From positions 1-62,849 of the IMG/VR virus record IMGVR_UViG_3300038492_000542: a stretch of 62,849 nt of DNA. One strand, 5' to 3'. This stretch comes from a virus. Taxonomy: Duplodnaviria; Caudoviricetes. Positions 17,808 through 39,320 of this stretch are shown piece after piece. The first letter of the stretch is position 1, and each line of letters starts with the position of its first letter. Under the pieces are notes generated by a model. The model had not been told where the DNA came from, ran no database searches, and saw only the letters and a program-made list of their open reading frames with translations. The position numbers and the translations under genes are program-made.

Positions 17808-18078
17808 GCGGCGTTGCCTCAACGTTAAAGTATTCGTGGTCTGACCAATCGGTTTCATCTCTATTATTCCAGCAATAAGTGCCGGTTATCATGTGGTGCC
17901 CAACGCTAGGCTCTTCACCAAGGCTTGTGACCATGTGGTCTACCGCCTCTGATCCATTTTCCATAACGTCCGCCGATATCTCATCGACATCACACTCTGT
18001 CATTACGATGTCACCATTCATGCCAACGGATATCTCAGCGATAAACTCCGCGACATTGTCATAACTGCTAATTCCCAT
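17800..18078 (-). CDS. Hypothetical acidic protein, first gene of leftward operon
   Basis: GGAG SD before ATG 18078. Confidence 0.6.
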   Translation of the reverse strand: MGISSYDNVAEFIAEISVGMNGDIVMTECDVDEISADVMENGSEAVDHMVTSLGEEPSVGHHMITGTYCWNNRDETDWSDHEYFNVEATPHE

Positions 18079-18099
18079 TTTTCTCTCCTGCTGTAAAAA

Positions 18100-18140
18100 G
18101 TGCTTGCATATTATTACTAATATTATTACCATGCAAGCAC
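18100..18140. promoter_or_regulatory. Overlapping symmetric divergent sigma70 promoters
   Basis: + strand TTGCAT-17-TACCAT (18104-18132); - strand TTGCAT-17-TAATAT (18136-18108); flanked by inverted repeat GTGCTTGCAT/ATGCAAGCAC. Confidence 0.7.
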
Positions 18141-18161
18141 TATTTCAATGAGGACTGAAAA

Positions 18162-18347
18162 TTGACTAAAGAAGAAAAGAAAAAGATTACTAATGAGGCC
18201 AAAAAGCTTTTGAAAGCATTAAAGGGGCGCGGTAAAACTCAGCAAGATATTGCTATAGAGATTGGCTGCACTCAAGGCTGGATAGCTGCTGTTAAGAGTG
18301 GCGCTATTCCAAGCGATGATTTTATGAGTGCGCTTAGAAAGATATAA
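18162..18347 (+). CDS. Cro-like HTH regulator
   Basis: GKTQQDIAIEIGCTQGWIAAVKSG..PS; first gene of the rightward operon. Confidence 0.75.
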   Translation: MTKEEKKKITNEAKKLLKALKGRGKTQQDIAIEIGCTQGWIAAVKSGAIPSDDFMSALRKI

Positions 18348-24496: not shown

Positions 24497-25505
24497 TATT
24501 GTTAGCATATCAGGTGGCAAGGACAGTACTGCAACCGCGCTCTTGGCCATAGATAATGAGGTTGAAAACTTGAGATTTGTTTTTGCTGATACCGGTCATG
24601 AGCATGATATAACGTATCAGCATATTGACTATCTTAATGATAAGTTTAAAGAGTTGTGTGGCATTGGAATTGATTGTGTAAAGGCTGACTTTTCCGAAAA
24701 GATAAAAGCAAAAAGGCAGGGATTAATAGACCATATCATTACAATGTCTGAATGCGGAAAATCCAACAAGAGATTAAAATCTTACACTCCAGAGATCGTG
24801 GAAAGAATGGTTGATAATCTAGAGCCTACTGGAAATTCATTTGCGGATCTTGCTATTTGGAAGGGTAGATTTCCCTCTACTCGTGCTCGCTTTTGCTCAG
24901 AGGAGTTAAAGCACAGGCCGCTAAATGATTATATAAACTCATTTGTTGGTGAGTTTAATGCAATCATAAGCTGGCAGGGAGTAAGGCGCGATGAAAGTGA
25001 GGAGCGATCAACTCTGAATGAGAAAGATGTTGAATTTGGCAGCTGGGAACCAGAACCATTCGGACACCTAATTTATAGACCAATACTTGACTGGAAAGCT
25101 CAAGACACTTTCGATTTTGCTGATCGTTTTGGTGTAAATCCTAACCCGCTATACAAAATGGGAATGGGGCGTGTCGGTTGTATGCCTTGCATTCATGCAA
25201 CAAAGCATGAGGTTAGGTCAATAGAAAGATATCTTCCAGATGTTATTGATAAAATGGTTGATATGGAAAGCAGGGTTAGTGAATCTTGCAAGAGAGGATG
25301 TTCAACATTTATGGATGCTAGGGTTACCGCTAAATATCTGGGTACAGGGAAGACGATAGATGACATTAAAATAAGCACTCATGGATTTAAAACTTATGTC
25401 GATTATGCGAGAACCGAAAGGGGAGGCAGGCAGCAAAGTTTGATAGCGGCTATCGATCTAACCTCTGAGAAAACGTGCAGTTCAATTTATGGTCTTTGTG
25501 AATAA
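24483..25505 (+). CDS. PAPS-reductase family (PP-loop) protein
   Basis: SISGGKDS, FADTG, RFCSEELK, QGVRRDES..R, RVGCMPC, C-terminal CSSIYGLCE. Confidence 0.9.
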   Translation: MSKCNIVSISGGKDSTATALLAIDNEVENLRFVFADTGHEHDITYQHIDYLNDKFKELCGIGIDCVKADFSEKIKAKRQGLIDHIITMSECGKSNKRLKSYTPEIVERMVDNLEPTGNSFADLAIWKGRFPSTRARFCSEELKHRPLNDYINSFVGEFNAIISWQGVRRDESEERSTLNEKDVEFGSWEPEPFGHLIYRPILDWKAQDTFDFADRFGVNPNPLYKMGMGRVGCMPCIHATKHEVRSIERYLPDVIDKMVDMESRVSESCKRGCSTFMDARVTAKYLGTGKTIDDIKISTHGFKTYVDYARTERGGRQQSLIAAIDLTSEKTCSSIYGLCE

Positions 25506-25511
25506 CTAACG

Positions 25512-25790
25512 GTGAATATTATGGATTTTCAACTTTTTGATTTTTTGGTTTTTTTCATTCCTGTGTGCTGGGCGCTTTTGAGCTTGGTGAATTTATGGGA
25601 TGTTGCTAGAACGATTTGTGAGACTTGGAGCTGGTCGGGGTTTTGGCAGGCTGCCACTAAATCTAGCGTTTCTGGTGATACCGAACATAGCCAAATCCAT
25701 GGTGAAAACTTGTCTTTAGCGGTGCTTGCTGTATTTCTTTTTGTCTTATCTGGTCCAATTGGCGTTATTTTTGGTGAAAAATATTCTTGA
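25512..25790 (+). CDS. Hypothetical membrane protein
   Basis: Two hydrophobic segments. Confidence 0.45.
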   Translation: MNIMDFQLFDFLVFFIPVCWALLSLVNLWDVARTICETWSWSGFWQAATKSSVSGDTEHSQIHGENLSLAVLAVFLFVLSGPIGVIFGEKYS

Positions 25791-25814
25791 CACGGTTTGA
25801 TAATATATTATTAT
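25787..25814 (+). promoter_or_regulatory. Promoter for rdgC with operator-like motif in the spacer
   Basis: TTGACA-16-TATTAT containing TTTGATAATATATT. Confidence 0.6.
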
Positions 25815-25862
25815 GCGCATCAAGGGTTAGGAAATCGATGCGCATAACTAGCAAGGGTTAAA

Positions 25863-26705
25863 ATGATGAAGGCAGTCACGGCATACAGACTAAGCGAAGA
25901 TAATAATAAATTCTTTGATGGTATCGGTGATCAAATGAATACTTATCTTGAGCGCAATGAGTTCAAGCCATGTCAAAAGCTTGAGATCTATAGTCACGGA
26001 TTTATTAAAACGCCTAGCAATGAGTTTTGCACATCGGTTATGGGTTCGCATCATTTTATTTATCAGCGTCAAGATAAGATTTTGCCGGCTTCCGTTATTA
26101 ATGATTTTGTTAAAGATAAAATCGAAAGTATTTTTGATCTTGAAGGTAGAAAGGTTGGCAGAAAAGAGCGCAAGGATATCAAAGATGAGTTGATGTTTGA
26201 GTTGCTACCCAAGGCCTTTACTAAAAAAATACAAGTTCCATGTTTTATTAAGGGTGATAAGATTTTTATTGGATGCTCATCGACAAAGCGCGCTGAGGAA
26301 ATCTGTTCTTTAGTTCGAGATTCAATGGGTAATCTTCCAATTTTGCCATTGGAAAGAATATCGCTGGATGAATTGGCTAAAAGCTATGAAGAGGGTGATA
26401 TAATACCTCTAGATAAAATTAAACTTGTTCAAGCAAAAGGCGGTGCCACATCTAGCCATAAGCATATACCTGTTTTTAGTGATGAGGTTAGAACTGCTTT
26501 TGATGCCGGCATGAGCGTTGAAGAAATAGCCATAGAATACAAGGAAAACTTCAGCGCGACATACACAACATCTCGACAGCTAAAAAGCCTTAAATTAAGC
26601 GATGAAATTAAATTTGAGGCACAGGATGGTTGTGAAACTGAAGCCGATCTTTGGCAGGCAACGCAAATAATTTTATCCGATGTTATTGGTGAGTTTTATG
26701 GATAA
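25863..26705 (+). CDS. rdgC: Recombination-associated protein RdgC
   Basis: F.PC...E..S.GF, KILPASVI, EGRKVGRKERKDIKDE...ELLPKAF, S.KRAEE....R. Confidence 0.88.
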   Translation: MMKAVTAYRLSEDNNKFFDGIGDQMNTYLERNEFKPCQKLEIYSHGFIKTPSNEFCTSVMGSHHFIYQRQDKILPASVINDFVKDKIESIFDLEGRKVGRKERKDIKDELMFELLPKAFTKKIQVPCFIKGDKIFIGCSSTKRAEEICSLVRDSMGNLPILPLERISLDELAKSYEEGDIIPLDKIKLVQAKGGATSSHKHIPVFSDEVRTAFDAGMSVEEIAIEYKENFSATYTTSRQLKSLKLSDEIKFEAQDGCETEADLWQATQIILSDVIGEFYG

Positions 26706-26997
26706 AATAGATTGGAAGTTTGTAAGCAAGACTGAGGGTTATATTTCGCTTAAAAAAAGCTATATTGAAAGATTGAATTATCTTAATTGCTCATATTCAA
26801 GAAGAAAAAATATTAAAATTATAAAGCAGGATCATTATTCTGATTTCAGAGAGTGCATAGGTAGGGTTATGAAATTTTCTAACCTATGGGGTATTGATTT
26901 CCATATTTTATTGAATCACTTTGAAAAAAATAGAAAAACTTGCTATGTTTATTTTTACAGTAGTTGGAATTTGATTAACTATAAACCAAGTCTGTAA
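26698..26997 (+). CDS. Hypothetical protein
   Basis: AT-rich ORF overlapping the rdgC stop. Confidence 0.5.
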   Translation: MDKIDWKFVSKTEGYISLKKSYIERLNYLNCSYSRRKNIKIIKQDHYSDFRECIGRVMKFSNLWGIDFHILLNHFEKNRKTCYVYFYSSWNLINYKPSL

Positions 26998-27281
26998 GAT
27001 GGTCGCTCGAAGAGAAAAAGCCGAACTGATTACGATGTCGAGATCATAAAGGTAAGGTAAGTATCTGATTAATGCGGGTGATAGGGTAAACTCGAATAAT
27101 ACCTAGTGACTGCATTTTGTGAAGACTGCATAAATAGATTCTCACGCTAAGCCTTTGCAGCTAACGTGACAACAGTTCGGCCATCAGGGCTGTGAGGATC
27201 AACTAAAGTTTTTATTTGTAATTCTCTTTGAAGGTGATTGCAAATAAGAATTTGCAAACCCCCTCGGCATAAAGGAGGGGG

Positions 27282-27390
27282 CACTAGAAACAGCTCTTGG
27301 TGTGCTTGATGGGCGATTCAAGCGGCATAATTCGCGAAATGTCAGGTTTTAGCCCGAGGGTTCGACTCCCTACAAGAGCTGTTTCTAGTG
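27282..27390 (+). ncRNA. tRNA-like cloverleaf inside an 18-bp perfect terminal stem
   Basis: CACTAGAAACAGCTCTTG/CAAGAGCTGTTTCTAGTG; D-like arm GCTTGA/TCAAGC; T-arm AGGG-TTCGACT-CCCT. Confidence 0.6.
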
Positions 27391-27735
27391 TTCTGAATGT
27401 AAAGTAGACTAGGTATGGTTGCCATCTACGATTTAGTTCACTGCCAGATAAGGCTAAAATCCGTCACGGTAAACGACGTTAAAATGCGAACCCTTCTTGC
27501 CAGTATTATGTGGTCCATAAATCTGGGTGCTGATGACACTAACATCATGACAAGCTGGGAAAGTACCAGCCCTATACCGTTGATGGTTGAGGTTGTGTTG
27601 CGCACAACGAATACGGGTAAAAGGCTGACAGTCGGGAAAGTACCGGCAACTTACGGTCTGGTCGGCGCCTATATTATGACTCCCCCTAATCTTCGCTGGG
27701 ATTGGGGTTCTGGTAACGGGTAATGAGAATTGATT

Positions 27736-27847
27736 GGTTGCTGAGACTGATTTTTCGTGACTTCGTTATTAGTGAATCCTCAGCGAGATTCGGAAAGCGA
27801 AAATCATGCGGATTGGTTGGAGGTGAAACCCCTTGCTCAGACCGCCA
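27736..27847 (+). ncRNA. tRNA-like element ending in GCCA with large insertion
   Basis: GGT(TG)CTGAG/CTCAGACC-G-CCA; T-like arm GAGG-TGAAACC-CCTT; internal TGATTTT(T)CG/CGAAAATCA stem. Confidence 0.4.
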
Positions 27848-27853
27848 ATTTAT

Positions 27854-27942
27854 GACTTGTAATTGTGAGGTGTGCAATAGCTTTGTGTGGCGGACTAGGG
27901 CCCTCAAAAGCTTGGCAGTTCGATTCTGTCTGCAGGTCACCA
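27854..27942 (+). ncRNA. Non-canonical tRNA-like RNA ending in ACCA
   Basis: 8-bp acceptor GACTTGTA/TGCAGGTC, T-arm GGCAG-TTCGATT-CTGTC, D-like arm, extended arm in place of the anticodon loop. Confidence 0.6.
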
Positions 27943-28347
27943 TTTAGTTTGTTTTGATCTGTGCGTAATCCATAGCATTAGCCGAAAGGTGCGTGGCCGC
28001 TGATAAGCTGAATAAACAGCAACTGCATTGCGCTATGGTAGTGGCTCTCAAGTAACAATAGGTGAACGAAGATGTGCGCACAGTTCAAAGCAAATTAAAC
28101 AATTTTCCATCACTGGAAAGGTGGCATCTATGCCTAAATAGACGGGTTTGCAATCCTAGGGTGTTTTTATCATTTGTACATCAATGCAACGCGATCAGGC
28201 AGGACTGGCGTTACAAGACTGTCTTTGCAAGCAGCGTGCTCTCCTTTGGTTGTTGCTGTGATTGCAGCGAGTAATGCGCGATAAGCATATCGTTAGTAGG
28301 AAACGGGATGGCCCCGCCTTAAGGGGCACACCAAAAGGAAAATCGAG

Positions 28348-28557
28348 ATGATGAAAGTAGCAACAAAGTCTTTGGAGTTAACAGCAAAAGTGCCGGAGGC
28401 TAGCGGAAACTATTATTGGGCAAAATCAAAAGGTGATGCCAAGGTAGAAGAGCTAAAGGTTAGTGTTATGTTTGCCCCAGGCAATGCCATGGTGTTTCGT
28501 GATTCCAAATGGGTATTGTGCTCATCAATGGGCGGATACTGGGCTAGGATCGTATAA
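28348..28557 (+). CDS. Hypothetical protein (P..G.Y.W...GGYWA family)
   Basis: AAGGA SD; similar to the 44908-45261 C-terminus. Confidence 0.55.
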   Translation: MMKVATKSLELTAKVPEASGNYYWAKSKGDAKVEELKVSVMFAPGNAMVFRDSKWVLCSSMGGYWARIV

Positions 28558-29174
28558 TGCCAATTGAGCTCACGGTCCAGAAGATTAACAACACACTTGT
28601 TCCCGTTGAGCAGGCTGATGTTGAGGTTCTTCAAGATATCAAGAATGGCCAAGGTTTTCGCGTAAGCATTACCCGTGTGAGCGATAGAAGCCTAAAGCAC
28701 CACAGATTGTATTGGGGTGGTCTTGTTAAGCTTCTTTCGGATTACTGGGAGCCTGAGAGCGGCCTAATATCAAAGTATGATAAGCGTGTCATGGGTAGTT
28801 TGATAGATTGGGTGGCTGCCAGGGGTTATGAAACCGAGGCGCTATCTTCACTGGTTGGTCTATACCTTCAGGACAGAGCTGAAAAAGTGAAGCGGTCGGT
28901 ACCAGATTTCGACAAGGCCGCGGCAAGGTTAGAAGATATACATGATTGGCTTAAGCGTGAAGCCGGATACTGGGAGGCTGTGCCAACGCCGACGGGAGTC
29001 ACCAAAAAGCTAAAAAGCATAAATTTCAATGCTCTGCCTAGCGAAGAGGAGTTCATGAAGTTTTATAAGTCCGTTTTTTCAGTGGCTTGGCGCTATGTGT
29101 TTAGTAAGGCTAAGTTTAAAGATGAGCAAGAGGCTATGGATCTCGCGCTTCAAATGTCACAGATGGGGCGATAA
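28557..29174 (+). CDS. DUF1367/NinB-like protein
   Basis: RSLKHHRLYW, WLK.EAGY, KSINF..L...EF..FY. Confidence 0.75.
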   Translation: MPIELTVQKINNTLVPVEQADVEVLQDIKNGQGFRVSITRVSDRSLKHHRLYWGGLVKLLSDYWEPESGLISKYDKRVMGSLIDWVAARGYETEALSSLVGLYLQDRAEKVKRSVPDFDKAAARLEDIHDWLKREAGYWEAVPTPTGVTKKLKSINFNALPSEEEFMKFYKSVFSVAWRYVFSKAKFKDEQEAMDLALQMSQMGR

Positions 29175-29468
29175 ATGACATCCAAGTTAACCAAGGCCTC
29201 AAGAGGCACTGATTGCACTGTTCAAATACACCCATACTGCAATGGCAATCCTGAAACCACTGTTTTTGCGCATGCACCAAGCGAAGATAAGGGATGGTCA
29301 ATAAAAAGCCCTGATTGGTGGGGTGCTGATTGCTGTTCGACTTGCCATGACATAGTTGATGGAAGAATGAAAACAGATATTGAATCTTCTGAAGTTTTTC
29401 AGTGCTTTATGCGCGGTGTTTACAGAACGATAAAAAGACGAATTGATCAGGGTTTAATAAAGGTATGA
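29175..29468 (+). CDS. DUF1364 family (YbcO-like) Zn nuclease-fold protein
   Basis: SRG.DCTVQI..YCNGNPETTVFAH, CCSTCHDIVDGR. Confidence 0.85.
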   Translation: MTSKLTKASRGTDCTVQIHPYCNGNPETTVFAHAPSEDKGWSIKSPDWWGADCCSTCHDIVDGRMKTDIESSEVFQCFMRGVYRTIKRRIDQGLIKV

Positions 29469-29857
29469 GCGAGCACAAACACCAAGTCACAGTTGTTAGG
29501 TATGTAAAGACCGCTCATCCAAGTCTAGAGCATATGCTTGTGGCCTACCCTAGTGGTGCCATTATTGGCAGTGCCGTAAAGTCTAAAGCCGGCGCCCATG
29601 CTGCCAAGATGGGTCAGATAGCTAAGCTTAAGAAAGAAGGGTGGAGAAAAGGTATACCCGACCTTTTGTTTTTTGTCGCTCGCGGCGGCTATCATGGCCT
29701 TGTTATTGAGATGAAGGACCAAGGCAAAACTCAGTGCTCATTGTTAAAAGATCAAAAGTTCTATCTTTCAAGCTTTGAAGATCAGGGTTATAAAGCTATT
29801 TGGTGTGCCGGTTCTGATCAGGCGATTGCGGCGATTGATGATTACTTGGCTCTTTAA
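29465..29857 (+). CDS. VRR-NUC domain nuclease (resolvase-like)
   Basis: EH..Q, K.EG.RKGIPDL, GL.IEMK, Q......QGY. Confidence 0.85.
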   Translation: MSEHKHQVTVVRYVKTAHPSLEHMLVAYPSGAIIGSAVKSKAGAHAAKMGQIAKLKKEGWRKGIPDLLFFVARGGYHGLVIEMKDQGKTQCSLLKDQKFYLSSFEDQGYKAIWCAGSDQAIAAIDDYLAL

Positions 29858-31657: not shown

Positions 31658-32132
31658 TCCATTATCATTAGTGTCACTTTTAAAAGTCGGCAAATCAGCT
31701 ATTGAGAGAATTTGGCCGGACGCTAACAAGCGCGCAGAAGAGATGCGTAAGCTTCAAGAACTAGAGCAGAAAGGGCAGTTGGCAGAGTTGGAGGCTCATG
31801 TTAAAACTTTGACTATGCAGGCTCAAATAAATCTAGAAGATGCTAAGAGTGGAAACATGTGGCAAGCGGGTTGGCGGCCGGCTATTGGGTGGGTTGGCGC
31901 GTTATCACTGTTTTTGATGTACGTTCCCAAAGCTATCATGATGACCATCATTTGGGCTTGGCAGTGCTTTGCAATTCTTAACGGTGCTGAGGATGTTTCC
32001 GCGGTTAATCTGCCTGCCTTCCCTGATTTGGGTGTCACTGATATTATCGGCCTTTTAATGTCGATGCTGGGTATAGCTGGCATGCGAAGCTATGACAAAA
32101 TGAAAAAAACAGACACGAAGGGTGTTAATTAA
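31647..32132 (+). CDS. Holin, 3TM GTA-release type (DUF3154-like)
   Basis: IERIWPD, QAQIN..DA, WQAGWRPAIGW, MLGIAGMRSYDK. Confidence 0.88.
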   Translation: MAIDPLSLVSLLKVGKSAIERIWPDANKRAEEMRKLQELEQKGQLAELEAHVKTLTMQAQINLEDAKSGNMWQAGWRPAIGWVGALSLFLMYVPKAIMMTIIWAWQCFAILNGAEDVSAVNLPAFPDLGVTDIIGLLMSMLGIAGMRSYDKMKKTDTKGVN

Positions 32133-33946
32133 TGGCTGACTTGACAATGACAGGTGCAACCTATGCATCAGCAGAGGCTGGCTTTGGTCAGGCGCTAACG
32201 GGTGGGTATGGCGAGTCTGGCAATGATTATCTTCCTCAAGATACATTCACCGTTACCGCTCGTGTAAGTAGTGTGGCTTCAAGTGGATCTATTGGTGTCA
32301 TTGTGGGGCAGGCCAATGCTTTTTGGGTTGGCAAAAATGGTTCAAATTTATGCGAAGCTAGATATGGTTCTGGCGGTGGTGAGGTTGCGCTGGTTTCTTC
32401 TGTCGATTTAACGGTTGGTGGCCCACATCACATAGAGTTAAACCTTCATGCTGGTGGTGCTCGTTTATTTGTGAATGGCGTCATTGAGGCATCAAGCACA
32501 ACATCACCATCAGCAGCAGGTGTGAATCTTTCTTCTGGCTCTCCGTTTCAAGTTAGGCGATTTGTTACGGCGTTTAATTTTGATGGTGCTGTTGATGAGG
32601 TTGCATTATTTACAGATCAGCTACATGATGCAAATTTCACCCATCCATCTGCGCCGTACTCTAACAATGTGGCTGGAATATATAGCCTGTGGCATTTAGA
32701 TAATAATGGCGTTGATTCAGCCAATGCAGGAAGTGTCATTGATATTGCTCCAGATAATCCGGCTCTGATATACAGCAGATGCAATTGGCTAACATCATCG
32801 ACAGAATCTAAAACAATTAATGTTGGTGCGTGGTTTAAAACACTTTTCACGGGTTCCTCATTAACCCTTAACTTTGATATGACAGGAATTAGTGCTCGCC
32901 GGCCCGTCATTGTGGCAAGAATTGACGGCAGGGATTGGCAGAAGTTTGATGTTGAGGAAACAGTGCCTCTGTCTATTCCTAGTGATCAAGATAATGACAC
33001 TCACTTGCTTGAGGTTTTGTTTGATGCGGCAACGGAAACTGTTTCTCGATGGTCTCCTCAGTCAGTTGCTGTTGTTTTCACTGGATTAACATTAAGTAGT
33101 GGCAGTGAAACTGTGGCAGCGCCTGAACTTGTTGATGATTATGTGTTGTTTTATGGAGATAGCATAACCGAGGGCGTGAGGACTCTAGCGACCAATGGAT
33201 CACTTGACGTTGATAGGAATTCTCAAGTTGTTGGATGGCCTCGCCGAGTTGCTGATTTATTGGGTTGTGATTCTGCAGTTGTTGCATTTGGCAGCCAAGG
33301 CATAAGTGATTCTGGTAATGGTGGTGTACCAAATCTAGTCAATTCTTATGATTTCCTCTGGTCTGGACAGTCAAGAGACTTTTCCATACCGCCAAAATAT
33401 TGCATATGGCTTCAGGGTCACAATGATGGATCTAGCAACACAGTTGCAGACGGATTAGAAGCGCTTAACGGAATGTTGGCCAGTATGGTTGATACTATTT
33501 TTTTTCTTGTTCGCCCATTTTCTGGCAATCAAGCGGCTAATCTTCAATCAATACAATCGACATGCAATGAGCCTAACAGGGTTTTCTATATAGATTCTAC
33601 CGGATTTTTTAACACCTCAAATTCTGCTGATGGATTGCACCCTTACGGATTTGAAGATTTTGCCAATATAGCGCCTAAAATTGCTCAGGCAATAAATAAT
33701 CCAACCCATACATCTAACGCGATCTTATCGGCAGCGGGAATACCCGATGGGACGTATAGGGTGAGATTGTTTTATGAAGATTTGAATTGCGGTGACTCTC
33801 CTGTTTTTGATGGTGATGTGGTGTTTTCAGGTGGTACTGGGTCTGCATCATTTGGTGATAAGTCGGGTAGGTCTGTTACTGGATATGTGGTAGATAATAT
33901 AGGCTCTCATATTAATGGGGCCGTTCTTCAGGTGACTACATCATGA
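32132..33946 (+). CDS. LamG (ConA-like) + SGNH/GDSL esterase virion-associated protein
   Basis: LamG FDGAVDEV..F motif; SGNH blocks FYGDSITEG, GSQG, GHND, DGLHP. Confidence 0.8.
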   Translation: MADLTMTGATYASAEAGFGQALTGGYGESGNDYLPQDTFTVTARVSSVASSGSIGVIVGQANAFWVGKNGSNLCEARYGSGGGEVALVSSVDLTVGGPHHIELNLHAGGARLFVNGVIEASSTTSPSAAGVNLSSGSPFQVRRFVTAFNFDGAVDEVALFTDQLHDANFTHPSAPYSNNVAGIYSLWHLDNNGVDSANAGSVIDIAPDNPALIYSRCNWLTSSTESKTINVGAWFKTLFTGSSLTLNFDMTGISARRPVIVARIDGRDWQKFDVEETVPLSIPSDQDNDTHLLEVLFDAATETVSRWSPQSVAVVFTGLTLSSGSETVAAPELVDDYVLFYGDSITEGVRTLATNGSLDVDRNSQVVGWPRRVADLLGCDSAVVAFGSQGISDSGNGGVPNLVNSYDFLWSGQSRDFSIPPKYCIWLQGHNDGSSNTVADGLEALNGMLASMVDTIFFLVRPFSGNQAANLQSIQSTCNEPNRVFYIDSTGFFNTSNSADGLHPYGFEDFANIAPKIAQAINNPTHTSNAILSAAGIPDGTYRVRLFYEDLNCGDSPVFDGDVVFSGGTGSASFGDKSGRSVTGYVVDNIGSHINGAVLQVTTS

Positions 33947-34077: not shown

Positions 34078-34416
34078 ATGCCAAATCAAAGAATACTTAC
34101 AGGAACCGCGAGGCCCCATTTTCAAACTGAAAGCATGAACACACTCAGCGTTCGTGATTATTTTTCATCCCTTGGAATAAATGAAAGTGACACCGTAAAA
34201 ATTGGTAAAATTCACTATCAAATATTTCCCAATGGTGAGCAGATGGTAACAACTCAGTCATCAGAGCCAGATGCGGCTGATGCTGAGCTCACACGAGATG
34301 GTGATTATATTTACACGCTAAGCCTTAATGTAAGCGCCAACAATTTTAAGGGTGCTTTAACTTCTGCCATAGCTCAAGCTGATCAAAAAATAAGTGATCT
34401 TTACGGGGGTAACTAA
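34078..34416 (+). CDS. Hypothetical protein
   Basis: 112-aa ORF in structural block. Confidence 0.55.
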   Translation: MPNQRILTGTARPHFQTESMNTLSVRDYFSSLGINESDTVKIGKIHYQIFPNGEQMVTTQSSEPDAADAELTRDGDYIYTLSLNVSANNFKGALTSAIAQADQKISDLYGGN

Positions 34417-35771
34417 TGCCTCCTGTATCACCACCTGCTGGATGGACTAAAGGCCTACAAATAGATATTGGCAATAGTTTTATACCTACCACCATCAATG
34501 GTAAGGTTCCTGCCGTTCTAACCGCTGCAGCGTTTACTGCTAGCTTCATGGCAGCCATGCAGTCTGATGCTAGAGATTTGCGTTTTACCAGCGATGCTAA
34601 TGGCACTCAATTTTTACCGCGAGAAGTGCAGTACTTTGATGAGCCTAATGGCCATTTGATAGTTCATGTGGGTCTAGACGCCGTTACCGCTTCAACTACT
34701 AAGACGATCTATGCATGGTGCAATAATTCAAGCGCTTCAGAGCCACCACCACGGGACATATCAGGCGCCCAATCAGTTTGGAATAATGTGCTGGGTGGCA
34801 CTGATAGCTATTATGGTGTGTGTCACTTTCAGCAGGCCAGTGACAGCGGTACTCTATTTCCTTCTGACCCTGGCTTTAAATCGGGTTATGAGTCAACCGG
34901 AAATTGGACGCCGGTGAACGCGGGTTCAGGCGTTTCAGATGGTGCTGGGCTGTTGCCGGGTCAAAACGCGTGGGTAATGAGTAACAGCAACAACGTTATT
35001 AACTTGGAAGCCATAAACACCACCCAGAATGATAGCACTGTGCCTTTTTGGCTGGAGTTTTGGGTGTATGCCACATCATACCCGAACAGTAACGCACCCA
35101 TATTTGTAGGAGACTTTAACCGGTTCTTGAAGTGGGAAAGTAACGGCAAGGTAAAGTTTGGTGATTCGGGTAACCCGTCAACAAATGGAATTTTGCTAAA
35201 CCAGTGGAATCAGGTTGCGATGATGCGTGATGCCTCTGGAAATGTGACCTTCTTTCTCAACGGGCAGCCAAATGGAACAACCCAAACCACTCAAGATATT
35301 GAGAATATGAACCGCCTGTTTCAGGATAGAAATAATAACGGCAATGGCTATGATGGTGTTCGGTTTCAGTGGGTTAGGTTATGCCGAGGAGCAACACTAG
35401 GCACCTCTCACCTTGAGATGCAATGGAACGCGGCGGCGAATGATGACACCTTTGCAGCGCCTAGTAATGAGACTGATTTCAACCCGAGCGTGCAGTTAAA
35501 AGTTACGGCGTTGGATTTGGATACTAGATTGCCAATTCAAAATGCAAGAGTTAGATTAGCAACAACCCCTGGTAATGTCGTTGTGCTGGAGGGTTTAACA
35601 GATGCAAGTGGTGAATTAACGGGTTCTTACGATCAAACAACCCCGCAAGATGTTGAGGGTGTTGTTAGAAAGGCAACCGATCCCGACCCGCTTTACAAAC
35701 AGGGTGTCTTGGTAGGCACGATTACAACCGGCGGCCTTGATATTGTGGCGCCAATGACATTAGACGAGTAA
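34416..35771 (+). CDS. DUF2341 + LamG + Ig-like virion protein
   Basis: D.RDLRFTSD..G...L.RE (DUF2341-like), NQWNQVA...FFLNG (LamG), PIQNARV...LTDASG C-terminal domain. Confidence 0.7.
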   Translation: MPPVSPPAGWTKGLQIDIGNSFIPTTINGKVPAVLTAAAFTASFMAAMQSDARDLRFTSDANGTQFLPREVQYFDEPNGHLIVHVGLDAVTASTTKTIYAWCNNSSASEPPPRDISGAQSVWNNVLGGTDSYYGVCHFQQASDSGTLFPSDPGFKSGYESTGNWTPVNAGSGVSDGAGLLPGQNAWVMSNSNNVINLEAINTTQNDSTVPFWLEFWVYATSYPNSNAPIFVGDFNRFLKWESNGKVKFGDSGNPSTNGILLNQWNQVAMMRDASGNVTFFLNGQPNGTTQTTQDIENMNRLFQDRNNNGNGYDGVRFQWVRLCRGATLGTSHLEMQWNAAANDDTFAAPSNETDFNPSVQLKVTALDLDTRLPIQNARVRLATTPGNVVVLEGLTDASGELTGSYDQTTPQDVEGVVRKATDPDPLYKQGVLVGTITTGGLDIVAPMTLDE

Positions 35772-35777
35772 ACAATT

Positions 35778-37433
35778 ATGGCTATTGCAGACTTCTTTAG
35801 CATTGATGCAAACAAAAATATTCGGCGAACCGGTGCGGCTCATGGTGGTGGTGCTGAATATTTCACAGTTCTTGAACTTCACCGGTGGCTTCAGGATTTG
35901 GCAGACAATGAGGGTGTTACTGGTGATGATTTGATCTCTATCATTAGTCGAGACCCATCAAACAAGCAGACTGATAACATTGTTGAGCTAAAAAATAATG
36001 CCAACCTTGATGATGATGCTGCCGAGTACATCTACAACGGTTCAATTATTCAGGCTGAAGGCGATACTATCTATGATGGTGTTGATGTAATTGGTGAGGG
36101 TCCGCACTTGATCATTCATCAAAATGGTCAAGTTCTTACCAATGATTTCTGGAATACTGGTGGTGGCCTTAATCCTGATCCATCTCGCGGAATTTCACAC
36201 CGATTCATGCTAAAAGTGAGGGAAGGTGGCGCCGATATCGACGGGCGGCGACTGCTGGGCTTGCGTCGTGAGTTCGGCAAGAGTTATGGCGAGTTTCCAA
36301 TTAACGGTACATCTCGCGGTATTAACGTGATGGCTGTTACTGAGTCAGACGACCTCAACAACCAAACCGCTGAGGGAACCGTTGCCACGTGGACAGACAT
36401 AACCAATACAGAAGGTTATTCACTTCTTGACTTGAATAATGGTAATGGTGCACAACCTTACTACTCTACTTGGAACTTTGGTGCTAGAACTGTCAATCAG
36501 TTTTATGAGCGCTTGAAGTGGCTAACCCGCCAAGGCACTGTTGAGACAATCTATGGTTTAGATGGTGAATTATTCCGTGGTATCACTCATGAGATTGATA
36601 TTGACACTAATGCAGGCACCTTTGTTGAGCCTGAGGCGGTTAGCTGGGCTACAGGTACTGGTCAGCTTCTAGCAATCGACTCTCCATCAGTCGGCACAAA
36701 AATGTGGATTCAGCTTTTAACTGGTGTCGTGCCTACTGATGGCCAAGTTATTACTGGTGGAACTTCTGGGGCAACATCTGCGGTTAATTCGACAATAACA
36801 GTCAGGCCGGTATCATCACCGTTCGTTGGTCAGTCAACAGGGACAGCAATTATTGGCTCATATGGCCTTGGTATCAATCCTGCTGCGTTGACAGTAAACG
36901 ATAAGCTAACCGATTTAACAGACACCTTGCAAACTCCACCAAACCAACAAAGTTTCACTGTTGCTGGTATTGTTGCTAGTGAGGATCGTGTTTTAGTGGG
37001 GCCAATCAATGGTACTAGTGATAATGTAGAATTAAATCAGCTAACAGCAAACGGCGCGCAGGGTGCATCCTCAACAACATTCACGGTCAATGAGGCTATA
37101 CCAGCAGACACGCCGGCAAGTGGTACAATACGCGTATTTAATGGTGTTGATCATATGCGTGTCGAGTATGACAGTTATTCTGGCTCTGTTTTCACGCTTA
37201 CCTCTACACTAGGTGCGGCGGTTTCTGATGGTGCTGGTGCATTTATTTCGTATATTGATAAGTTGGCACAAAGCACCGCTGAGTCGTACACCTACATCTA
37301 CAGCACTGACCGATCACTTTATGTAAAAGTTCGTGATGGTGATGAGGCTAGTCCAATTGTTCCATTTGAAACACCAGCAACCGCTGGTAGTGCTGGTGGA
37401 TCAGTAACTGCAATTAGAACGAGTGACGCCTAG
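35778..37433 (+). CDS. Virion structural (fibre-like) protein
   Basis: 551 aa, Gly/Thr-rich beta-type sequence; YFTVLELHRWLQDLAD N-terminal motif seen in siphovirus structural proteins. Confidence 0.6.
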   Translation: MAIADFFSIDANKNIRRTGAAHGGGAEYFTVLELHRWLQDLADNEGVTGDDLISIISRDPSNKQTDNIVELKNNANLDDDAAEYIYNGSIIQAEGDTIYDGVDVIGEGPHLIIHQNGQVLTNDFWNTGGGLNPDPSRGISHRFMLKVREGGADIDGRRLLGLRREFGKSYGEFPINGTSRGINVMAVTESDDLNNQTAEGTVATWTDITNTEGYSLLDLNNGNGAQPYYSTWNFGARTVNQFYERLKWLTRQGTVETIYGLDGELFRGITHEIDIDTNAGTFVEPEAVSWATGTGQLLAIDSPSVGTKMWIQLLTGVVPTDGQVITGGTSGATSAVNSTITVRPVSSPFVGQSTGTAIIGSYGLGINPAALTVNDKLTDLTDTLQTPPNQQSFTVAGIVASEDRVLVGPINGTSDNVELNQLTANGAQGASSTTFTVNEAIPADTPASGTIRVFNGVDHMRVEYDSYSGSVFTLTSTLGAAVSDGAGAFISYIDKLAQSTAESYTYIYSTDRSLYVKVRDGDEASPIVPFETPATAGSAGGSVTAIRTSDA

Positions 37434-37630
37434 TGGATAAAAAAACCCTTCAAACAATCAGTGGTAGTTTAGAGTATACAAACGGTGAGCTAGAAAAGTT
37501 GCGAAGGCTTGTTACCGCTCAAAACGAAGCGATACAAAGCCAAGGCAGAAAAATTATAGCGCTTGAGAAGCTTATCATGGGGCTAGCAACACATGGCAAC
37601 AACGATAGATTGGCCGACGAAGGTAATTAA
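37433..37630 (+). CDS. Small coiled-coil protein
   Basis: Coupled 65-aa ORF. Confidence 0.5.
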   Translation: MDKKTLQTISGSLEYTNGELEKLRRLVTAQNEAIQSQGRKIIALEKLIMGLATHGNNDRLADEGN

Positions 37631-38726
37631 TATTCCTCGTGCCGATTTACAATTGGTTCAAGAGACTCCAACGGAAATTAGGCAGCTTAGCTTAGATGTT
37701 TTCCGTTTAATCTTACGTGGCCTTGAGGCTAGTCTAGAGGGTATACCCTATCTGCAGACTCATAACCATACACCACCTGTTAGCGTGGGTAGCGTTCAGC
37801 TGGCTCGTGTTGTTGAACTAATAAATAACTACACAGTGACATTTGAGGATGGCCAATACGCCGTTAATATCATCGGTGGCAACTCTAATATTGGTGATTT
37901 TATTAATGTTAATCAGGTGTCAGTAAGAACGGCCAACTCGGCCGGATTGACATACTCAAAAGAGATTGAAGACCAAGCCTTTACCGACGCAAGAATATAC
38001 ATTGATTCTGAAAAGGGATTGCCTGGGACTATTTACCCACAAGGTGTGCCAGGGCGACCAGTTGCTACGCTGCAAGATGCTCAAACTATCATCGAAACAA
38101 GAAATCTACCAAAGCGAATTTCTCTAACCGGAAACATTAACCTAACTTCTGATGATGATGTGAGTGAGTATGATATCGCTGGGGCGTCGTCCAACTTGGC
38201 CTCAATAATTGCTGATACCGGAGCCAATACCATGGATATGGTAATAACTAATCTAACTCTCATTGGTGATTTGAATGGTAACATTTCCGCTAGATCTTCA
38301 TCATCTCTAGTATCGCTAAATAATTTTGATGGTGAGTTAATTGATTGCGGTATTGATGGGATTATCACCTTGGGACAAGCTGATGATACAGTTAACCATG
38401 AATTTATTGATTGCTATTCACAATCTGAAGGCGACACATACCCAATAATTGATGCACAAGGCCTAGATGGTCTATCTGTAAAATTCGTTGACTATAGTGG
38501 TGCCTTAGCTTTTCGAAATTTCAATCAACCATCTAATGTTGTTACGGTAAATCTTGGGTCAGGAGCCGTGCTTATTGATAGTTCATGCACTGCTGGAACT
38601 TTCGTTATTCGAGGTACTGGTAACTTGATTGATGAAAGTGGCGAAGGCTGCACAGTTATTACAAGCGCATTTGCTGAAGGCACTGATAAGGCCACAGAAA
38701 AGATATGGAGCTATACCCGTGCTTGA
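37593..38726 (+). CDS. Virion structural protein, probable beta-helix
   Basis: H.HT.PV.VG.V.LARVVE.IN.YTVTFEDGQYAVN..G.NSNI N-terminal domain; repetitive beta-rich C-terminus. Confidence 0.6.
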   Translation: MATTIDWPTKVINIPRADLQLVQETPTEIRQLSLDVFRLILRGLEASLEGIPYLQTHNHTPPVSVGSVQLARVVELINNYTVTFEDGQYAVNIIGGNSNIGDFINVNQVSVRTANSAGLTYSKEIEDQAFTDARIYIDSEKGLPGTIYPQGVPGRPVATLQDAQTIIETRNLPKRISLTGNINLTSDDDVSEYDIAGASSNLASIIADTGANTMDMVITNLTLIGDLNGNISARSSSSLVSLNNFDGELIDCGIDGIITLGQADDTVNHEFIDCYSQSEGDTYPIIDAQGLDGLSVKFVDYSGALAFRNFNQPSNVVTVNLGSGAVLIDSSCTAGTFVIRGTGNLIDESGEGCTVITSAFAEGTDKATEKIWSYTRA

Positions 38727-39009
38727 TGCATGGCAAATTCTTGTTGGCAACAGCACGGCGCCAGCCGGAAGTGACGCATGGACACATCTCAATAATCAAC
38801 AAGGTGGTGGCGTTGTTGAGGGTGATATTATAGTATCAGAGCTTATATCTGTTGATATACAGGATGGTGTTGAAATGACCGATTTTAATGTTGATGTCTT
38901 AACTGTCAATCTTGATCTTGAAGTAATAACACTAGACGCACCGGAAGCCATAACCACTGAAATTGATAAAGATTTGGAGATAGCTGAAGATGACGGCTGT
39001 TCATGTTAA
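38719..39009 (+). CDS. Hypothetical acidic protein
   Basis: GGAG SD and GTG 38719; internal DAW..L repeat. Confidence 0.5.
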   Translation: MLDAWQILVGNSTAPAGSDAWTHLNNQQGGGVVEGDIIVSELISVDIQDGVEMTDFNVDVLTVNLDLEVITLDAPEAITTEIDKDLEIAEDDGCSC

Positions 39010-39298
39010 AAAAGGCGATAGCTATGCCTACGGCGCCAAAATACAAGGCATAACTGATCTAACGGGTTACACCTGCCAGATGCAGGTTAGGGCCAAGGAT
39101 AATCCTGATGTTGCCTTGGTTGATAAATCCATTGATGCTGTTGGCGATAAATTTCATGTAAACCTTGCTCCGGATGAATCAAGCACCTTAGAGATCGGCA
39201 AAACCTACACAATGGCCGCCCAAATATCAAATGCATCTCTAGAGTATGCCCGCGAAGTCGAGCGAGAAATTGAGATTGTAAAAGAATACGTTTATTAA
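38990..39298 (+). CDS. BppU N-terminal-like adaptor domain protein
   Basis: KKGDSY...DLTGYT..MQVR...L.P.ES..L..G.Y pattern. Confidence 0.6.
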   Translation: MTAVHVKKGDSYAYGAKIQGITDLTGYTCQMQVRAKDNPDVALVDKSIDAVGDKFHVNLAPDESSTLEIGKTYTMAAQISNASLEYAREVEREIEIVKEYVY

Positions 39299-39320
39299 CT
39301 TAAAAAGATGAAATTGTGCC

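What the first reader, a model, noticed from the sequence alone, without database searches (positions are those of the whole stretch)
26998..28340. 1.35-kb array of back-to-back structured RNA modules, several tRNA-like, in the nin region
Between rdgC/ORF26698 and the ninB-like gene there is no credible protein gene, yet almost every base falls in a pairing module. Modules: 27020-27181 (9-bp closure), a long hairpin at about 27210-27250, 27282-27390 (18-bp closure), 27394-27440, 27441-27665 (multibranch with two repeated loops), 27736-27847 and 27854-27942 (both ending in CCA), 27943-28099 (23-bp closure) and 28242-28339. Imperfections in the stems are mostly G-U on the + strand, as expected for selection on RNA. 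Inference: this is a polycistronic ncRNA cassette, possibly cut by RNase III/RNase P, that yields tRNA mimics and other small RNAs. Possible roles are decoys for tRNA-targeting defences or antitermination/scaffold RNA. It could also be an unrecognised large phage RNA like GOLLD or ROOL. This is my best candidate for an undescribed system.
Basis: partly seen in the sequence, partly recalled or inferred. Interest (0 to 1): 0.85.

Follow-up and report, generated by a model that had tools for sequence, protein, structure and literature searches.

The report
Phage tRNA-island-like non-coding cassette
A 1.35-kb gene-free stretch in a marine lambda-like phage holds two odd tRNA look-alikes and two copies of a small hairpin that recurs next to tRNA genes in many unrelated phages, but most of the other claimed RNA modules are no better than chance.

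Summary
Partly confirmed. 26998-28347 has no supported protein gene. It is not an array in which almost every base is structured: 120-nt windows in the gap fold no better than windows elsewhere in the first 35.6 kb, and 4 of the 9 named modules have z above -1.9.

Four things are real:
- Two irregular tRNA-like elements on the + strand. A is 27282-27390, tRNA-Sec/allo-tRNA-like, closed by a perfect 18-bp stem. B is 27854-27942, with an 8-bp acceptor, a TTCGATT T-arm and an encoded ACCA end.
- Two strong helices, 27205-27254 and 27943-28099.
- The "two repeated loops". These are two copies of a conserved motif, TGACA-GCCGG-GAAAG(T)A-CCGGC-A. I found it in 15 IMG/VR loci, 30 phage GenBank records and 17 of 5426 E. 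coli genomes. It lies in unannotated gaps, on the gene strand, often beside tRNA genes. It matches no Rfam family.

The closest relative carries unrelated ORFs in the same RdgC-NinB slot, so this is accessory cargo. I found no homologue of A, B or the whole region.

Best reading: a tRNA-island-type non-coding cassette, processed into non-decoding tRNA mimics and small hairpin RNAs. Expression and function are untested.

The parts
26998..28347 (+). Non-coding accessory stretch in the variable RdgC-NinB slot of the rightward early operon
   Evidence: No ORF here has family or homologue support. The closest relative, G002, has unrelated ORFs in the same slot. Two Logan assemblies cover the stretch in one piece with 0 differences, but they may be the source sample.
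27205..27254 (+). Long A/U-rich hairpin H, about 21 bp with 4 G-U pairs
   Evidence: z is -5.7 on + and -2.1 on -. It lies in the most negative 120-nt window of the first 35.6 kb. Mean pairing probability is 0.88 in the global fold. It has 4 G-U and 0 A-C.
27259..27281 (+). G+C-rich 7-bp hairpin (CCCCCTC/GAGGGGG) with no T-run after it
   Evidence: Read from the sequence. Present in the global MFE. The terminator scan found 0 sites in 25500-29500.
27282..27390 (+). tRNA-like element A. The core is 27293-27379: 7-8 bp acceptor, 6-bp D-stem, 4-bp T-stem with TTCGACT loop, short variable arm and an oversized anticodon-type loop. It sits on a perfect 18-bp closing stem.
   Evidence: Rfam tRNA-Sec scores 22.4 bits with E 0.0015 per genome, below the gathering score of 47. 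z is -6.3. It is the only 100% complementary repeat of 18 nt or more among the 25 inverted repeats listed of 33 found. ARAGORN calls it only at the 85% threshold. Pairing probability is 1.00 for the closure and 0.98 for the D-stem.
27394..27440 (+). Small hairpin with weak support
   Evidence: z is -2.4. The outer stem has probability 0.17 in the global fold.
27415..27723 (+). ORF102, probably not a gene
   Evidence: Codon score is 0.11, borderline against 0.13-0.30 for the training genes. It has no homologue. It overlaps both copies of a motif that lies in short open frames in 16 other phages.
27548..27571 (+). Motif copy 1: TGACAA-GCTGG-GAAAGTA-CCAGC
   Evidence: Hairpin probability is 0.99. 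Its stem carries a compensatory C-G to U-A change relative to the family.
27626..27648 (+). Motif copy 2: TGACA-GTCGG-GAAAGTA-CCGGC-A
   Evidence: It matches the family consensus at 22 of 23 positions. Hairpin probability is 0.53.
27854..27942 (+). tRNA-like element B: 8-bp acceptor (2 G-U), D-arm with GG, 5-bp T-stem with TTCGATT loop, discriminator A and encoded CCA. The anticodon arm is replaced by a 35-nt arm or by a class-II-like alternative.
   Evidence: It is the only ARAGORN hit in the window at the 90% threshold. It is the only strict T-arm plus acceptor match in the genome, where shuffles give 0.045 per genome. The general tRNA model gives no match at E up to 10. Fold z is only -0.6.
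27943..28099 (+). Module C: a 23-bp closing helix (20 Watson-Crick, 2 G-U, 1 mismatch) around a 111-nt irregular domain
   Evidence: Inverted repeat I1. z is -3.6 on + and -2.3 on -. Mean pairing probability is 0.93.

Best explanation
The gap is an accessory, non-coding cassette of the kind found in phage tRNA islands. It sits in a variable cargo slot between rdgC and ninB in the rightward early operon of a lambda-like siphovirus.

**Contents**
- Two irregular tRNA-derived genes, A and B. Both keep the acceptor/T-arm/D-loop "elbow" but lack a normal 7-nt anticodon loop.
- Two copies of a conserved 23-nt hairpin motif that in other phages lies inside or beside tRNA gene clusters.
- Two or three helices of about 20 bp: H, the A closure and the C closure.

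**Likely mechanism (inferred, not shown)**
- The stretch is read through on the + strand with the operon.
- The long helices and the tRNA-like elbows act as cutting and stabilising signals. This is RNase III-type cleavage at the long duplexes and RNase P at the 5' side of A and B.
- The products are small stable RNAs. The tRNA-like ones cannot decode, so they would act as tRNA mimics. They could be decoys or competitors for tRNA-binding host enzymes or tRNA-targeting defences.
- The hairpin motif would be a recognition or processing element.

**Shown:** the absence of genes, the tRNA-like anatomy, the strand bias, the recurrence and tRNA linkage of the motif, and the accessory nature of the slot.

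**Not shown:** transcription, processing and any function.
For: **tRNA-like anatomy**
- A matches the tRNA-Sec model over all 91 positions, with E 0.0015 per genome.
- A custom search for a T-loop TTCRANY, a T-stem and an abutting 7-bp acceptor finds 2 hits in 62.8 kb on both strands. Both are in this gap on the + strand. 200 shuffles give a mean of 0.465 per genome.
- B also carries ACCA, and it is the only ARAGORN hit at the 90% threshold.

**Strand**
- There are 6 G-U and 0 A-C positions in the two strand-neutral repeats.
- H is far more stable on +.
- The flanking genes are all on +.

**Hairpin motif**
- A pattern of 20 specified bases gave 15 IMG/VR loci.
- blastn gave 30 GenBank phage records and 17 of 5426 E. 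coli genomes, one place each, all unannotated.
- It occurs in 1 of 401 Pseudomonadota genomes, and that one is an unrelated coding match.
- It lies on the same strand as the upstream flanking gene in 7 of 7 annotated phages (6 of 7 for the downstream genes; Alexa's lie on the other strand).
- A tRNA lies within 400 nt on the same strand in 7 of 16 independent non-coding instances.
- 110 of 110 stem cells pair. Two pairs show compensatory changes, and 2 of 500 shuffles reach that level.

**Accessory slot**
- G002 (TerL 77%, NinB 73%, RdgC 58% identical) has 2.3 kb of unrelated ORFs in the slot.

**Precedent**
- Irregular 8/4 tRNAs occur in phages, and polycistrons of irregular, partly non-decoding tRNAs are described (PMC5389517, sections 12 and 16 read).
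- One of the 50 TerL relatives searched (50 of the 80 loci kept), G004, has another 98-nt irregular tRNA-Sec-like element that ARAGORN misses at default settings.
Against: - I found no homologue of A, B, H, C or the region as a whole. Searches used blastn against phages, five close relatives and single-sequence covariance models in 50 relatives. There is therefore no covariation test for A, B, H or C.
- B is not predicted by free-energy folding (z -0.6; acceptor probability 0.00 in the long transcript).
- B does not match the general tRNA model.
- A scores less than half the tRNA-Sec gathering score.
- ARAGORN hits at relaxed thresholds are at chance level overall: 22 hits against a shuffled mean of 25.4 at 80%.
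- The region as a whole is not more structured than the rest of the genome.
- No promoter or terminator is predicted inside the gap.
- A decaying tRNA cluster would give much the same picture.
- The motif was ascertained with exact patterns, so its apparent invariance is partly built in.
- Four motif loci lie in frame inside Mu-like transposase genes. A pure RNA-element reading does not explain this.
Confidence: 0.5

Rival explanations
1. Decaying tRNA cluster. The phage once carried ordinary tRNA genes here. A, B and the CCA-ending stretch 27736-27847 are pseudogenes at different stages of decay, with no present function.
For: - ARAGORN default and the general tRNA model find nothing.
- The anticodon arms are aberrant.
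- 27736-27847 keeps only a CCA end.
- The cassette is absent from the closest relative.
- The hairpin motif that elsewhere accompanies real tRNAs is present, as expected of a former tRNA island.
Against: - Decay should hit all stems alike. Instead the acceptor, D and T stems of A are perfect (8, 6 and 4 bp) and B's have only G-U changes.
- A's acceptor is extended to a perfect 18-bp helix, which no tRNA ancestor supplies.
- All 9 non-Watson-Crick stem positions in correctly specified helices are G-U on the + strand.
Confidence: 0.28
2. One large structured RNA of GOLLD or ROOL type spans most of the 1.35 kb.
For: - It is a long gene-free stretch in a phage with tRNA-like neighbours. From recall, this is typical of GOLLD and ROOL.
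- Other phages carry the hairpin motif in gaps of 0.3-2.3 kb with no annotated genes.
Against: - No Rfam match.
- No excess folding stability outside three or four local elements.
- The long-range module closures are unsupported in the ensemble.
- Motif-bearing gaps share only the 22-27 nt motif in most pairs.
Confidence: 0.05
3. The inverted repeats act at the DNA level, as recombination, replication or protein-binding sites or the ends of a small mobile element. They are not RNA structures.
For: - A's repeat is perfect (18 of 18) and the best in the genome.
- The motif is single-copy per genome, lies 125 nt after an integrase in one phage, and has short inverted arms around a 6-7 bp centre.
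- The cassette sits in a slot whose content is swapped between relatives.
Against: - Mismatches are G-U on + only.
- The motif lies on the gene strand in 7 of 7 annotated phages.
- Its loop is conserved while the stem covaries, which is the reverse of a dimeric operator.
- It is not a host attachment site: 1 unrelated hit in 401 Pseudomonadota genomes and only 17 of 5426 E. coli genomes.
Confidence: 0.1
4. The stretch encodes one or more small orphan proteins (ORF102 at 27415-27723, others of 70-74 aa), and the structures are incidental.
For: ORF102's codon score (0.11) is similar to those of the flanking small ORFs, 0.09 and 0.13.
Against: - No homologue in two very large protein sets.
- The only purine-rich run lies 1-2 nt before the ATG.
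- The two motif copies fall in different frames, 77 nt apart. The same motif lies in open frames of 12-45 aa in most of the other phages.
- The other ORFs in the gap score -0.16 to 0.07.
Confidence: 0.05

Closest known systems
Allo-tRNAs and polycistrons of irregular tRNAs (Mukai et al. 2017, PMC5389517; sections 12 and 16 read)
   Same: - They were found as sub-threshold tRNA-Sec model hits, as A was.
- They share a long acceptor with a short T-stem (8/4), a long D-stem and an extra arm.
- Some members are non-decoding, and some occur in phages and in polycistrons.
   Different: - A has an 8-10 nt anticodon-type loop and an 8-nt D-loop rather than a tetraloop, plus an 11-bp extension of the acceptor.
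- B is 8/5 with a 35-nt arm.
- I could not compare sequences because the supplements are closed.
Ordinary phage tRNA gene clusters
   Same: - They share the gene-strand orientation, short spacers, encoded CCA and an accessory position.
- The same hairpin motif sits among bona fide tRNAs in DIBBI, Medea1, Pokken and four IMG/VR phages.
   Different: No element here passes ARAGORN default or the Rfam tRNA model.
Theta (HDV-like) ribozymes next to viral tRNAs (PMC10879173; passages read)
   Same: - Both are small conserved RNA elements tied to phage tRNA genes, especially tRNA-Met and suppressor tRNAs.
- The motif here neighbours CAT-anticodon tRNAs in 4 loci and a suppressor tRNA in 1.
   Different: - Theta ribozymes are reported from gut phages of Bacteroidota and Bacillota.
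- I saw no HDV-like fold, no conserved catalytic C after the hairpin and no Rfam HDV match.
- Their descriptor was not run.
boxB hairpins of lambdoid nut sites (recalled, not tested)
   Same: Both are 5-bp G+C-rich stems with a GAAA-type loop in an early operon.
   Different: - The motif occurs in non-lambdoid phages: T1-like, N4-like, myoviruses and Mu-like.
- Its loop is 6-7 nt.
- The two copies are 77 nt apart.
- No boxA was seen.
GOLLD, ROOL and bacterial Y RNA (YrlA)
   Same: All are phage-borne or tRNA-mimicking non-coding RNAs near tRNA genes.
   Different: - No Rfam match at E up to 10.
- In A the long stem continues the acceptor rather than replacing the anticodon stem (YrlA layout recalled).

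Membership tests
Canonical tRNA | Match to the general tRNA covariance model or to ARAGORN at default thresholds | tested here: not met
   RF00005 gives no match at E up to 10 in the genome. ARAGORN finds 0 genes.
Canonical tRNA | 7-bp acceptor abutting a 5-bp T-stem with a TTCRANY loop, and GG in the D-loop | tested here: met
   B meets it strictly. A meets it with a 4-bp T-stem. Shuffles give 0.045 (strict) and 0.465 (relaxed) per genome.
Canonical tRNA | 5-bp anticodon stem with a 7-nt loop carrying U33 and a purine at 37 | tested here: not met
   A has a 5-bp stem with a 10-nt loop (alignment). B has a 35-nt arm in the MFE. Its alternative fold needs a U-U mismatch in the stem.
tRNA-Sec (RF01852) | Score at or above the gathering threshold of 47 bits | tested here: not met
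   A scores 22.4 bits. B gives no match.
Allo-tRNA (8/4 or 9/3) | 12-bp acceptor branch made of a longer acceptor and a shorter T-stem | tested here: inconclusive
   A can be drawn as 8 + 4 (ARAGORN drawing) or as 7 + G-A + 4. B is 8 + 5.
Allo-tRNA (8/4 or 9/3) | Long D-stem with a tetraloop, a long variable arm and a normal anticodon loop | tested here: not met
   A's D-stem is 6 bp but its loop is 8 nt. Its variable arm is only 3 bp plus a 4-nt loop. Its anticodon loop is oversized.
GOLLD / ROOL | Match to the Rfam models | tested here: not met
   0 matches at gathering score in the window and none at E up to 10 in 26600-28700.
tmRNA | tRNA-like domain plus a tag reading frame | tested here: not met
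   ARAGORN's tmRNA search found none.
Theta / HDV-like ribozyme | Nested double pseudoknot with a catalytic C in J4/2, placed within 5 nt of a tRNA end | tested here: inconclusive
   There is no Rfam HDV-type match. The base after the hairpin is A followed by variable bases. The authors' descriptor was not run.
CRISPR repeat / solitary repeat unit | The same repeat occurs in arrays in host genomes | tested here: not met
   The 17-mer occurs once in 1 of 401 Pseudomonadota genomes, against 2 for the reversed control. It occurs once per genome in 17 of 5426 E. coli genomes.

The most novel reading that the evidence does not exclude
The twin hairpins are members of an undescribed, widely spread phage RNA motif, NTGACA-GCCGG-GAAAG(U)A-CCGGC-A. 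The motif is built into tRNA islands and other accessory non-coding gaps of phages of Proteobacteria.

It would work as a dedicated recognition element. Possible roles are a processing or stabilising signal for polycistronic tRNA or tRNA-mimic transcripts, a small self-cleaving RNA, or a binding site or decoy for a conserved host or defence protein.

Together with the irregular tRNA mimics A and B, it would make this cassette a small-RNA counter-defence or host-takeover module.
Probability: 0.3. Interest if true: 0.7.

Novelty: new variant of a known kind. Interest (0 to 1): 0.5.

Why it matters
- Phage tRNA islands are usually read only for their decoding tRNAs. This cassette suggests that they also carry non-decoding tRNA mimics and at least one conserved small hairpin element that annotation and Rfam both miss.
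- The motif occurs in cultured, tractable phages and prophages: E. coli phage mEp390, Xanthomonas DIBBI, Pseudomonas Medea1, and an E. coli phage-plasmid where it lies between a tRNA and a Tad2 anti-Thoeris gene. Its role can therefore be tested directly.
- If it is a processing signal or a decoy, it would add an RNA component to the known uses of phage tRNAs against tRNA-targeting defences.
- If A and B are mere relics, the region is ordinary.

Tried and rejected
**Searches for homologues of the region that found nothing useful**
- blastn against 50,697 phage records found nothing.
- The NinB query in IMG/VR gave 1 locus (56% identity) with coding DNA upstream.
- The RdgC query gave 0 loci.
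- The NinB query in metagenome contigs gave 1 locus cut at the gene start.
- The NinB alignment in genome contigs gave 1 partial match in an alphaproteobacterial MAG.
- Two B T-arm patterns gave 0 loci.
- The A T-arm pattern gave 17 loci. These are ordinary or irregular phage tRNAs sharing only the T-arm.
- DNA searches of G001-G006 gave only chance 17-20 nt matches.

**Sequencing runs**
- No RNA holder is listed. The only holders are two DNA runs of one study that may be the source.
- The laid contigs show continuity only.

**Readings considered and dropped**
- The first pattern hits L004-L006 are coding tandem repeats.
- I tested the idea that the twin motif is a relic of a Mu-like transposase gene. 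tblastn of the L003 protein gave no match beyond the motif. The DNA between the copies does align better than shuffles: score 9 against a mean of -13.7 and a maximum of 7 in 500.
- Frameshift site: the loop contains GGGAAAG, but stops follow in the frames needed.
- Sigma-70 promoter: the TGACA is -35-like, but no -10 is conserved, and in L126 a tRNA starts 3 nt after the motif.
- Terminator: a T-run follows in only 2 loci.
- Host attachment site or CRISPR repeat: rejected.
- A fixed spacing of about 48 nt from an upstream tRNA end to the hairpin is seen in 3 loci, but they share no structure.

**Literature**
- Searching papers for the motif as a string found only primers and unrelated viruses.
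- A word search for phage tRNA-cluster hairpins found 0 papers.
- Supplements of PMC5389517 and PMC10879173 could bear on membership but are closed.

**Tool and bookkeeping notes**
- One row (the G+C hairpin) used wrong coordinates and is disregarded.
Full report
**Setting**

The window is a whole IMG/VR virus record of 62,849 bp, estimated 96% complete. It comes from an aquatic metagenome.

PHROG and Pfam hits show a siphovirus with lambda-like early genes:
- Late and structural genes: major head, tape measure and tail genes at 1-15 kb, and TerL, portal and head morphogenesis genes at 56-62 kb.
- Leftward genes: RecT and exonuclease at 16-18 kb on the - strand.
- Rightward + strand operon:
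  - Ant/Rha at 22229
  - replication O-like and P-like at 22899 and 23584
  - PAPS reductase at 24459
  - RdgC at 25863-26705
  - ORF105 at 26680-26997
  - the gap
  - ORF69 at 28348-28557
  - NinB/DUF1367 at 28557-29174
  - YbcO at 29175
  - a resolvase-like gene at 29465
  - holin at 31632

The nearest cultured relatives of NinB and RdgC are Vibrio and other gammaproteobacterial phages, at 41% identity or less.

The gap 26998-28347 has no supported gene.
- Its longest ORF is ORF102 (27415-27723). It has no family hit.
- It has no homologue other than itself in the 5.8-billion-protein set.
- In the 1.84-billion representative set it matches only itself and one 970-aa low-complexity repeat protein. 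That E-value comes from four identical repeats.
- Its codon score is borderline (0.11). The other ORFs in the gap score from -0.16 to 0.07.

The claim of wall-to-wall structure fails.
- Against 200 dinucleotide shuffles, three of the nine modules stand out clearly: 27205-27255 (z -5.7), 27282-27390 (-6.3) and 27943-28099 (-3.6). 27394-27440 is marginal (-2.4). The other five lie between -0.6 and -1.9.
- A 120-nt sliding scan of the first 35.6 kb (593 windows) gives the gap a mean z of -0.14 and the rest -0.39.
- In a partition-function fold of 26950-28400, the robust helices are:
  - H: 0.88
  - the A closure: 1.00
  - A's D-stem: 0.98
  - the C closure: 0.93
  - the first loop hairpin: 0.99
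  - B's T-stem: 0.86
- In the same fold, the closures of modules 27020, 27441 and 28242 and B's acceptor are at 0.00-0.08.

**The two tRNA-like elements**

Standard tools give little. ARAGORN at default finds nothing. Rfam at gathering score finds nothing.

*Element A*
- With relaxed settings, A (core 27293-27379) aligns to the tRNA-Sec model over all 91 positions at 22.4 bits. That is E 0.21 against all families in 2.1 kb, and E 0.0015 for that family over the genome.
- Its acceptor is 7-8 bp, its D-stem 6 bp and its T-stem 4 bp with loop TTCGACT.
- It has a short extra arm and an anticodon-type stem of 5 bp closing a 10-nt loop.
- The acceptor continues into a perfect 18-bp helix. This is the only fully complementary repeat of that length among the 25 inverted repeats listed of 33 found in the genome.

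*Element B*
- B (27854-27942) has an 8-bp acceptor with two G-U pairs and a D-arm with GG.
- It has a 5-bp T-stem with loop TTCGATT, then A and CCA.
- Where the anticodon arm should be there is a 35-nt arm. The alternative is a class-II-like fold with one mismatch.
- It is the only ARAGORN call in the window at the 90% threshold.
- It does not match the general tRNA model at E up to 10.

*Are they chance?*
- Relaxed ARAGORN calls as such are at chance level: 22 at 80% against 25.4 in shuffles.
- I therefore tested a specific signature: a T-loop TTCRANY, a T-stem, and an abutting 7-bp acceptor 66-92 nt apart.
- The genome has 2 such sites. Both are in this gap on the + strand. 200 shuffles give a mean of 0.465 per genome, and 0.045 for the strict form that B meets.
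- Both elements are therefore real tRNA-derived features, and neither is a normal decoder.
- The third "CCA module" (27736-27847) has no T-arm and no excess stability.

**Strand**

In the two repeats found by a strand-neutral search (H and the C closure), the six transition-type mismatches are all G-U on the + strand and none is A-C. Counting B's stems as well gives 9 to 0 (one mis-specified row is ignored). H is much more stable on + than on -. This fits RNA made from the gene strand.

**The repeated loops are a recurrent phage motif**

*In the window*
- The two hairpins are 27554-27570 (GCTGG-GAAAGTA-CCAGC) and 27631-27647 (GTCGG-GAAAGTA-CCGGC). Both are preceded by TGACA.

*In IMG/VR*
- A two-copy pattern found an unrelated Mu-like phage with the same pair, 87 nt apart.
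- A single-copy pattern of 20 specified bases then found 15 IMG/VR loci.
- In 4 of the 15 loci (related Mu-like phages) the motif is in frame in the transposase gene.
- In one locus it lies inside a long ORF on the other strand.
- In the other ten it lies in open frames of 12-130 aa, that is, between genes.

*In cultured phages and E. coli*
- blastn of a 38-mer found 30 GenBank phage records.
- The seven annotated phages I opened carry a 6-nt-loop variant (GAAAGA or GAAAGT), in unannotated gaps of 0.3-2.3 kb, on the strand of the upstream flanking gene in 7 of 7 (6 of 7 for the downstream genes; Alexa's lie on the other strand):
  - E. coli mEp390
  - Cronobacter ESP2949-1
  - Acinetobacter Alexa
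  - Xanthomonas DIBBI
  - Stenotrophomonas Pokken
  - Pseudomonas Medea1
  - Klebsiella P7641
- In E. coli it occurs once each in 17 of 5426 genomes, always unannotated.
  - One is a prophage with a 1-kb gap after the repressor gene.
  - Another is a 93.7-kb plasmid where it lies between a CAT-anticodon tRNA and a Tad2 anti-Thoeris gene.

*Controls*
- It is absent from 494 kb of other phage loci held here.
- It is absent from 400 of 401 Pseudomonadota genomes. The one hit lacks the TGACA and is coding.

*Linkage to tRNA genes*
- A tRNA gene lies within 400 nt on the same strand in 7 of 16 independent non-coding instances.
- In three loci the motif ends 3-11 nt before a tRNA's first base.
- The neighbours include four CAT-anticodon tRNAs and one suppressor.

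*Extent and covariation*
- Most pairs of loci share only the 22-27 nt motif.
- mEp390 and DIBBI share 84 nt at 94% identity ending at the motif, including a second hairpin with a GGAAAGG loop. mEp390 and P7641 share a further 78 nt.
- On 22 aligned instances, all 110 stem cells pair. Two pairs carry compensatory changes, one of them in the window's copy 1. Only 2 of 500 shuffles reach the observed values.

*Known families and literature*
- No Rfam family matches.
- Text searches for the motif string found nothing relevant.

*Consequence for ORF102*
- Both copies lie inside ORF102, in different frames. This argues against that ORF being a gene.

**Comparative context**
- Homologues of the region itself could not be found.
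- TerL recovered 571 relatives. The best is G002 at 77%.
- G002 has NinB (73%) and RdgC (58%) in the same order. The 2.3 kb between them holds unrelated ORFs, among them a 169-aa one I read by eye as HNH-type. There is no DNA or protein similarity to the window's slot, nor to ORF105 or ORF69.
- The slot therefore carries exchangeable cargo.
- Single-sequence covariance models of A and B found nothing in 50 relatives.
- The tRNA-Sec model found 3 sub-threshold hits in those 50. One of them, G004:16975-17072, is another irregular 98-nt element that default ARAGORN misses.

**What it most likely is**

The anatomy and the company the motif keeps point to a tRNA-island-type accessory cassette in which the tRNA genes are irregular. 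Published precedent exists for 8/4 and 9/3 "allo-tRNAs". It also exists for phage 8/4 tRNAs and for polycistrons of irregular tRNAs, some charged but not used in translation (PMC5389517, sections 12 and 16; review PMC7609411, passages).

I infer, without data, that:
- the stretch is transcribed with the operon;
- the ~20-bp helices (H, the A closure, the C closure) and the tRNA-like elbows serve as processing and stabilising signals;
- the products act as non-decoding tRNA mimics and small hairpin RNAs.

The main rival is a decaying tRNA cluster. The perfect stems of A, its 18-bp extension and the one-sided G-U bias speak against it, but only homologues or expression data can settle this.

**Novelty and limits**

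The tRNA-like elements are new, atypical members of a known kind. The hairpin motif seems not to be described, but I could search only Rfam 15 and open-access text.

Limits:
- Its invariance is inflated by exact-pattern ascertainment.
- Its in-frame occurrence in Mu-like transposase genes is unexplained.
- No transcription evidence exists for this phage.

Noticed in passing
L114 1501-1598 (G004:C1:16975-17072): A 98-nt irregular tRNA-Sec-like element in a phage with 53% TerL identity. It has a 7-bp acceptor, a 7-bp D-stem and a GTAGG-TTCGAAT-CCTAC T-arm. It lies between genes and ARAGORN at default does not call it.
   Followed up: partly
L021, L025, L026 (IMG/VR loci): Three phages share a 91-nt tRNA with anticodon CCA and a long extra arm, using the same T-arm as element A. 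L024 has a 93-nt tRNA with anticodon TAT. These look like irregular, allo-type phage tRNAs.
   Followed up: no
L003 2855-2962; L117, L125, L129: The hairpin motif lies in frame (peptide MTAGKVPAP) in the linker after the N-terminal domain of Mu-like transposases. It occurs twice in L003. In L117 there is an upstream hairpin with the same stem and a different loop. Whether this is a tolerated insertion or a coincidence of coding is open.
   Followed up: partly
L131 1437-1520 and L134 1136-1219: E. coli phage mEp390 and Xanthomonas phage DIBBI share 84 nt at 94% identity ending at the motif, although their hosts and phage types differ. mEp390 and Klebsiella phage P7641 share a further 78 nt. This suggests a larger mobile or conserved non-coding element of about 200 nt.
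   Followed up: partly
L139 1263-2368 (E. coli 93.7-kb plasmid): The motif sits between a CAT-anticodon tRNA and a gene annotated as a Thoeris anti-defence Tad2 family protein.
   Followed up: no
L132 1-2300 (Cronobacter phage ESP2949-1): About 2.3 kb upstream of terS carries no annotated feature and contains the motif. A weak tmRNA-type match (19 bits, E 0.018) lies 100 nt after it.
   Followed up: no
L111 (G002:C1:10500-16500, reverse strand) 2538-3047: In the closest relative the RdgC-NinB slot holds a 169-aa ORF that I read by eye as an HNH-type homing endonuclease, plus four other small ORFs. No family search was run on them.
   Followed up: no
window 18076-18164: A 44-nt imperfect palindrome (73%) lies at the junction of the leftward and rightward operons. 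It is probably the operator and divergent promoter region.
   Followed up: no
window 32132-33946: A 604-aa protein next to the holin matches lactococcal and Leuconostoc phage neck passage structure proteins (28.7% identity over half its length). This is an odd neighbour for lysis genes in a phage of Proteobacteria.
   Followed up: no
window 34416-40660: Four ORFs of 365-551 aa (34416, 35778, 37593, 39563) have no PHROG hit at E up to 0.001.
   Followed up: no
L120 5117-5175: A DUF2815 RNA (Rfam RF03084, 69 bits) occurs in one of the motif-bearing IMG/VR phages.
   Followed up: no
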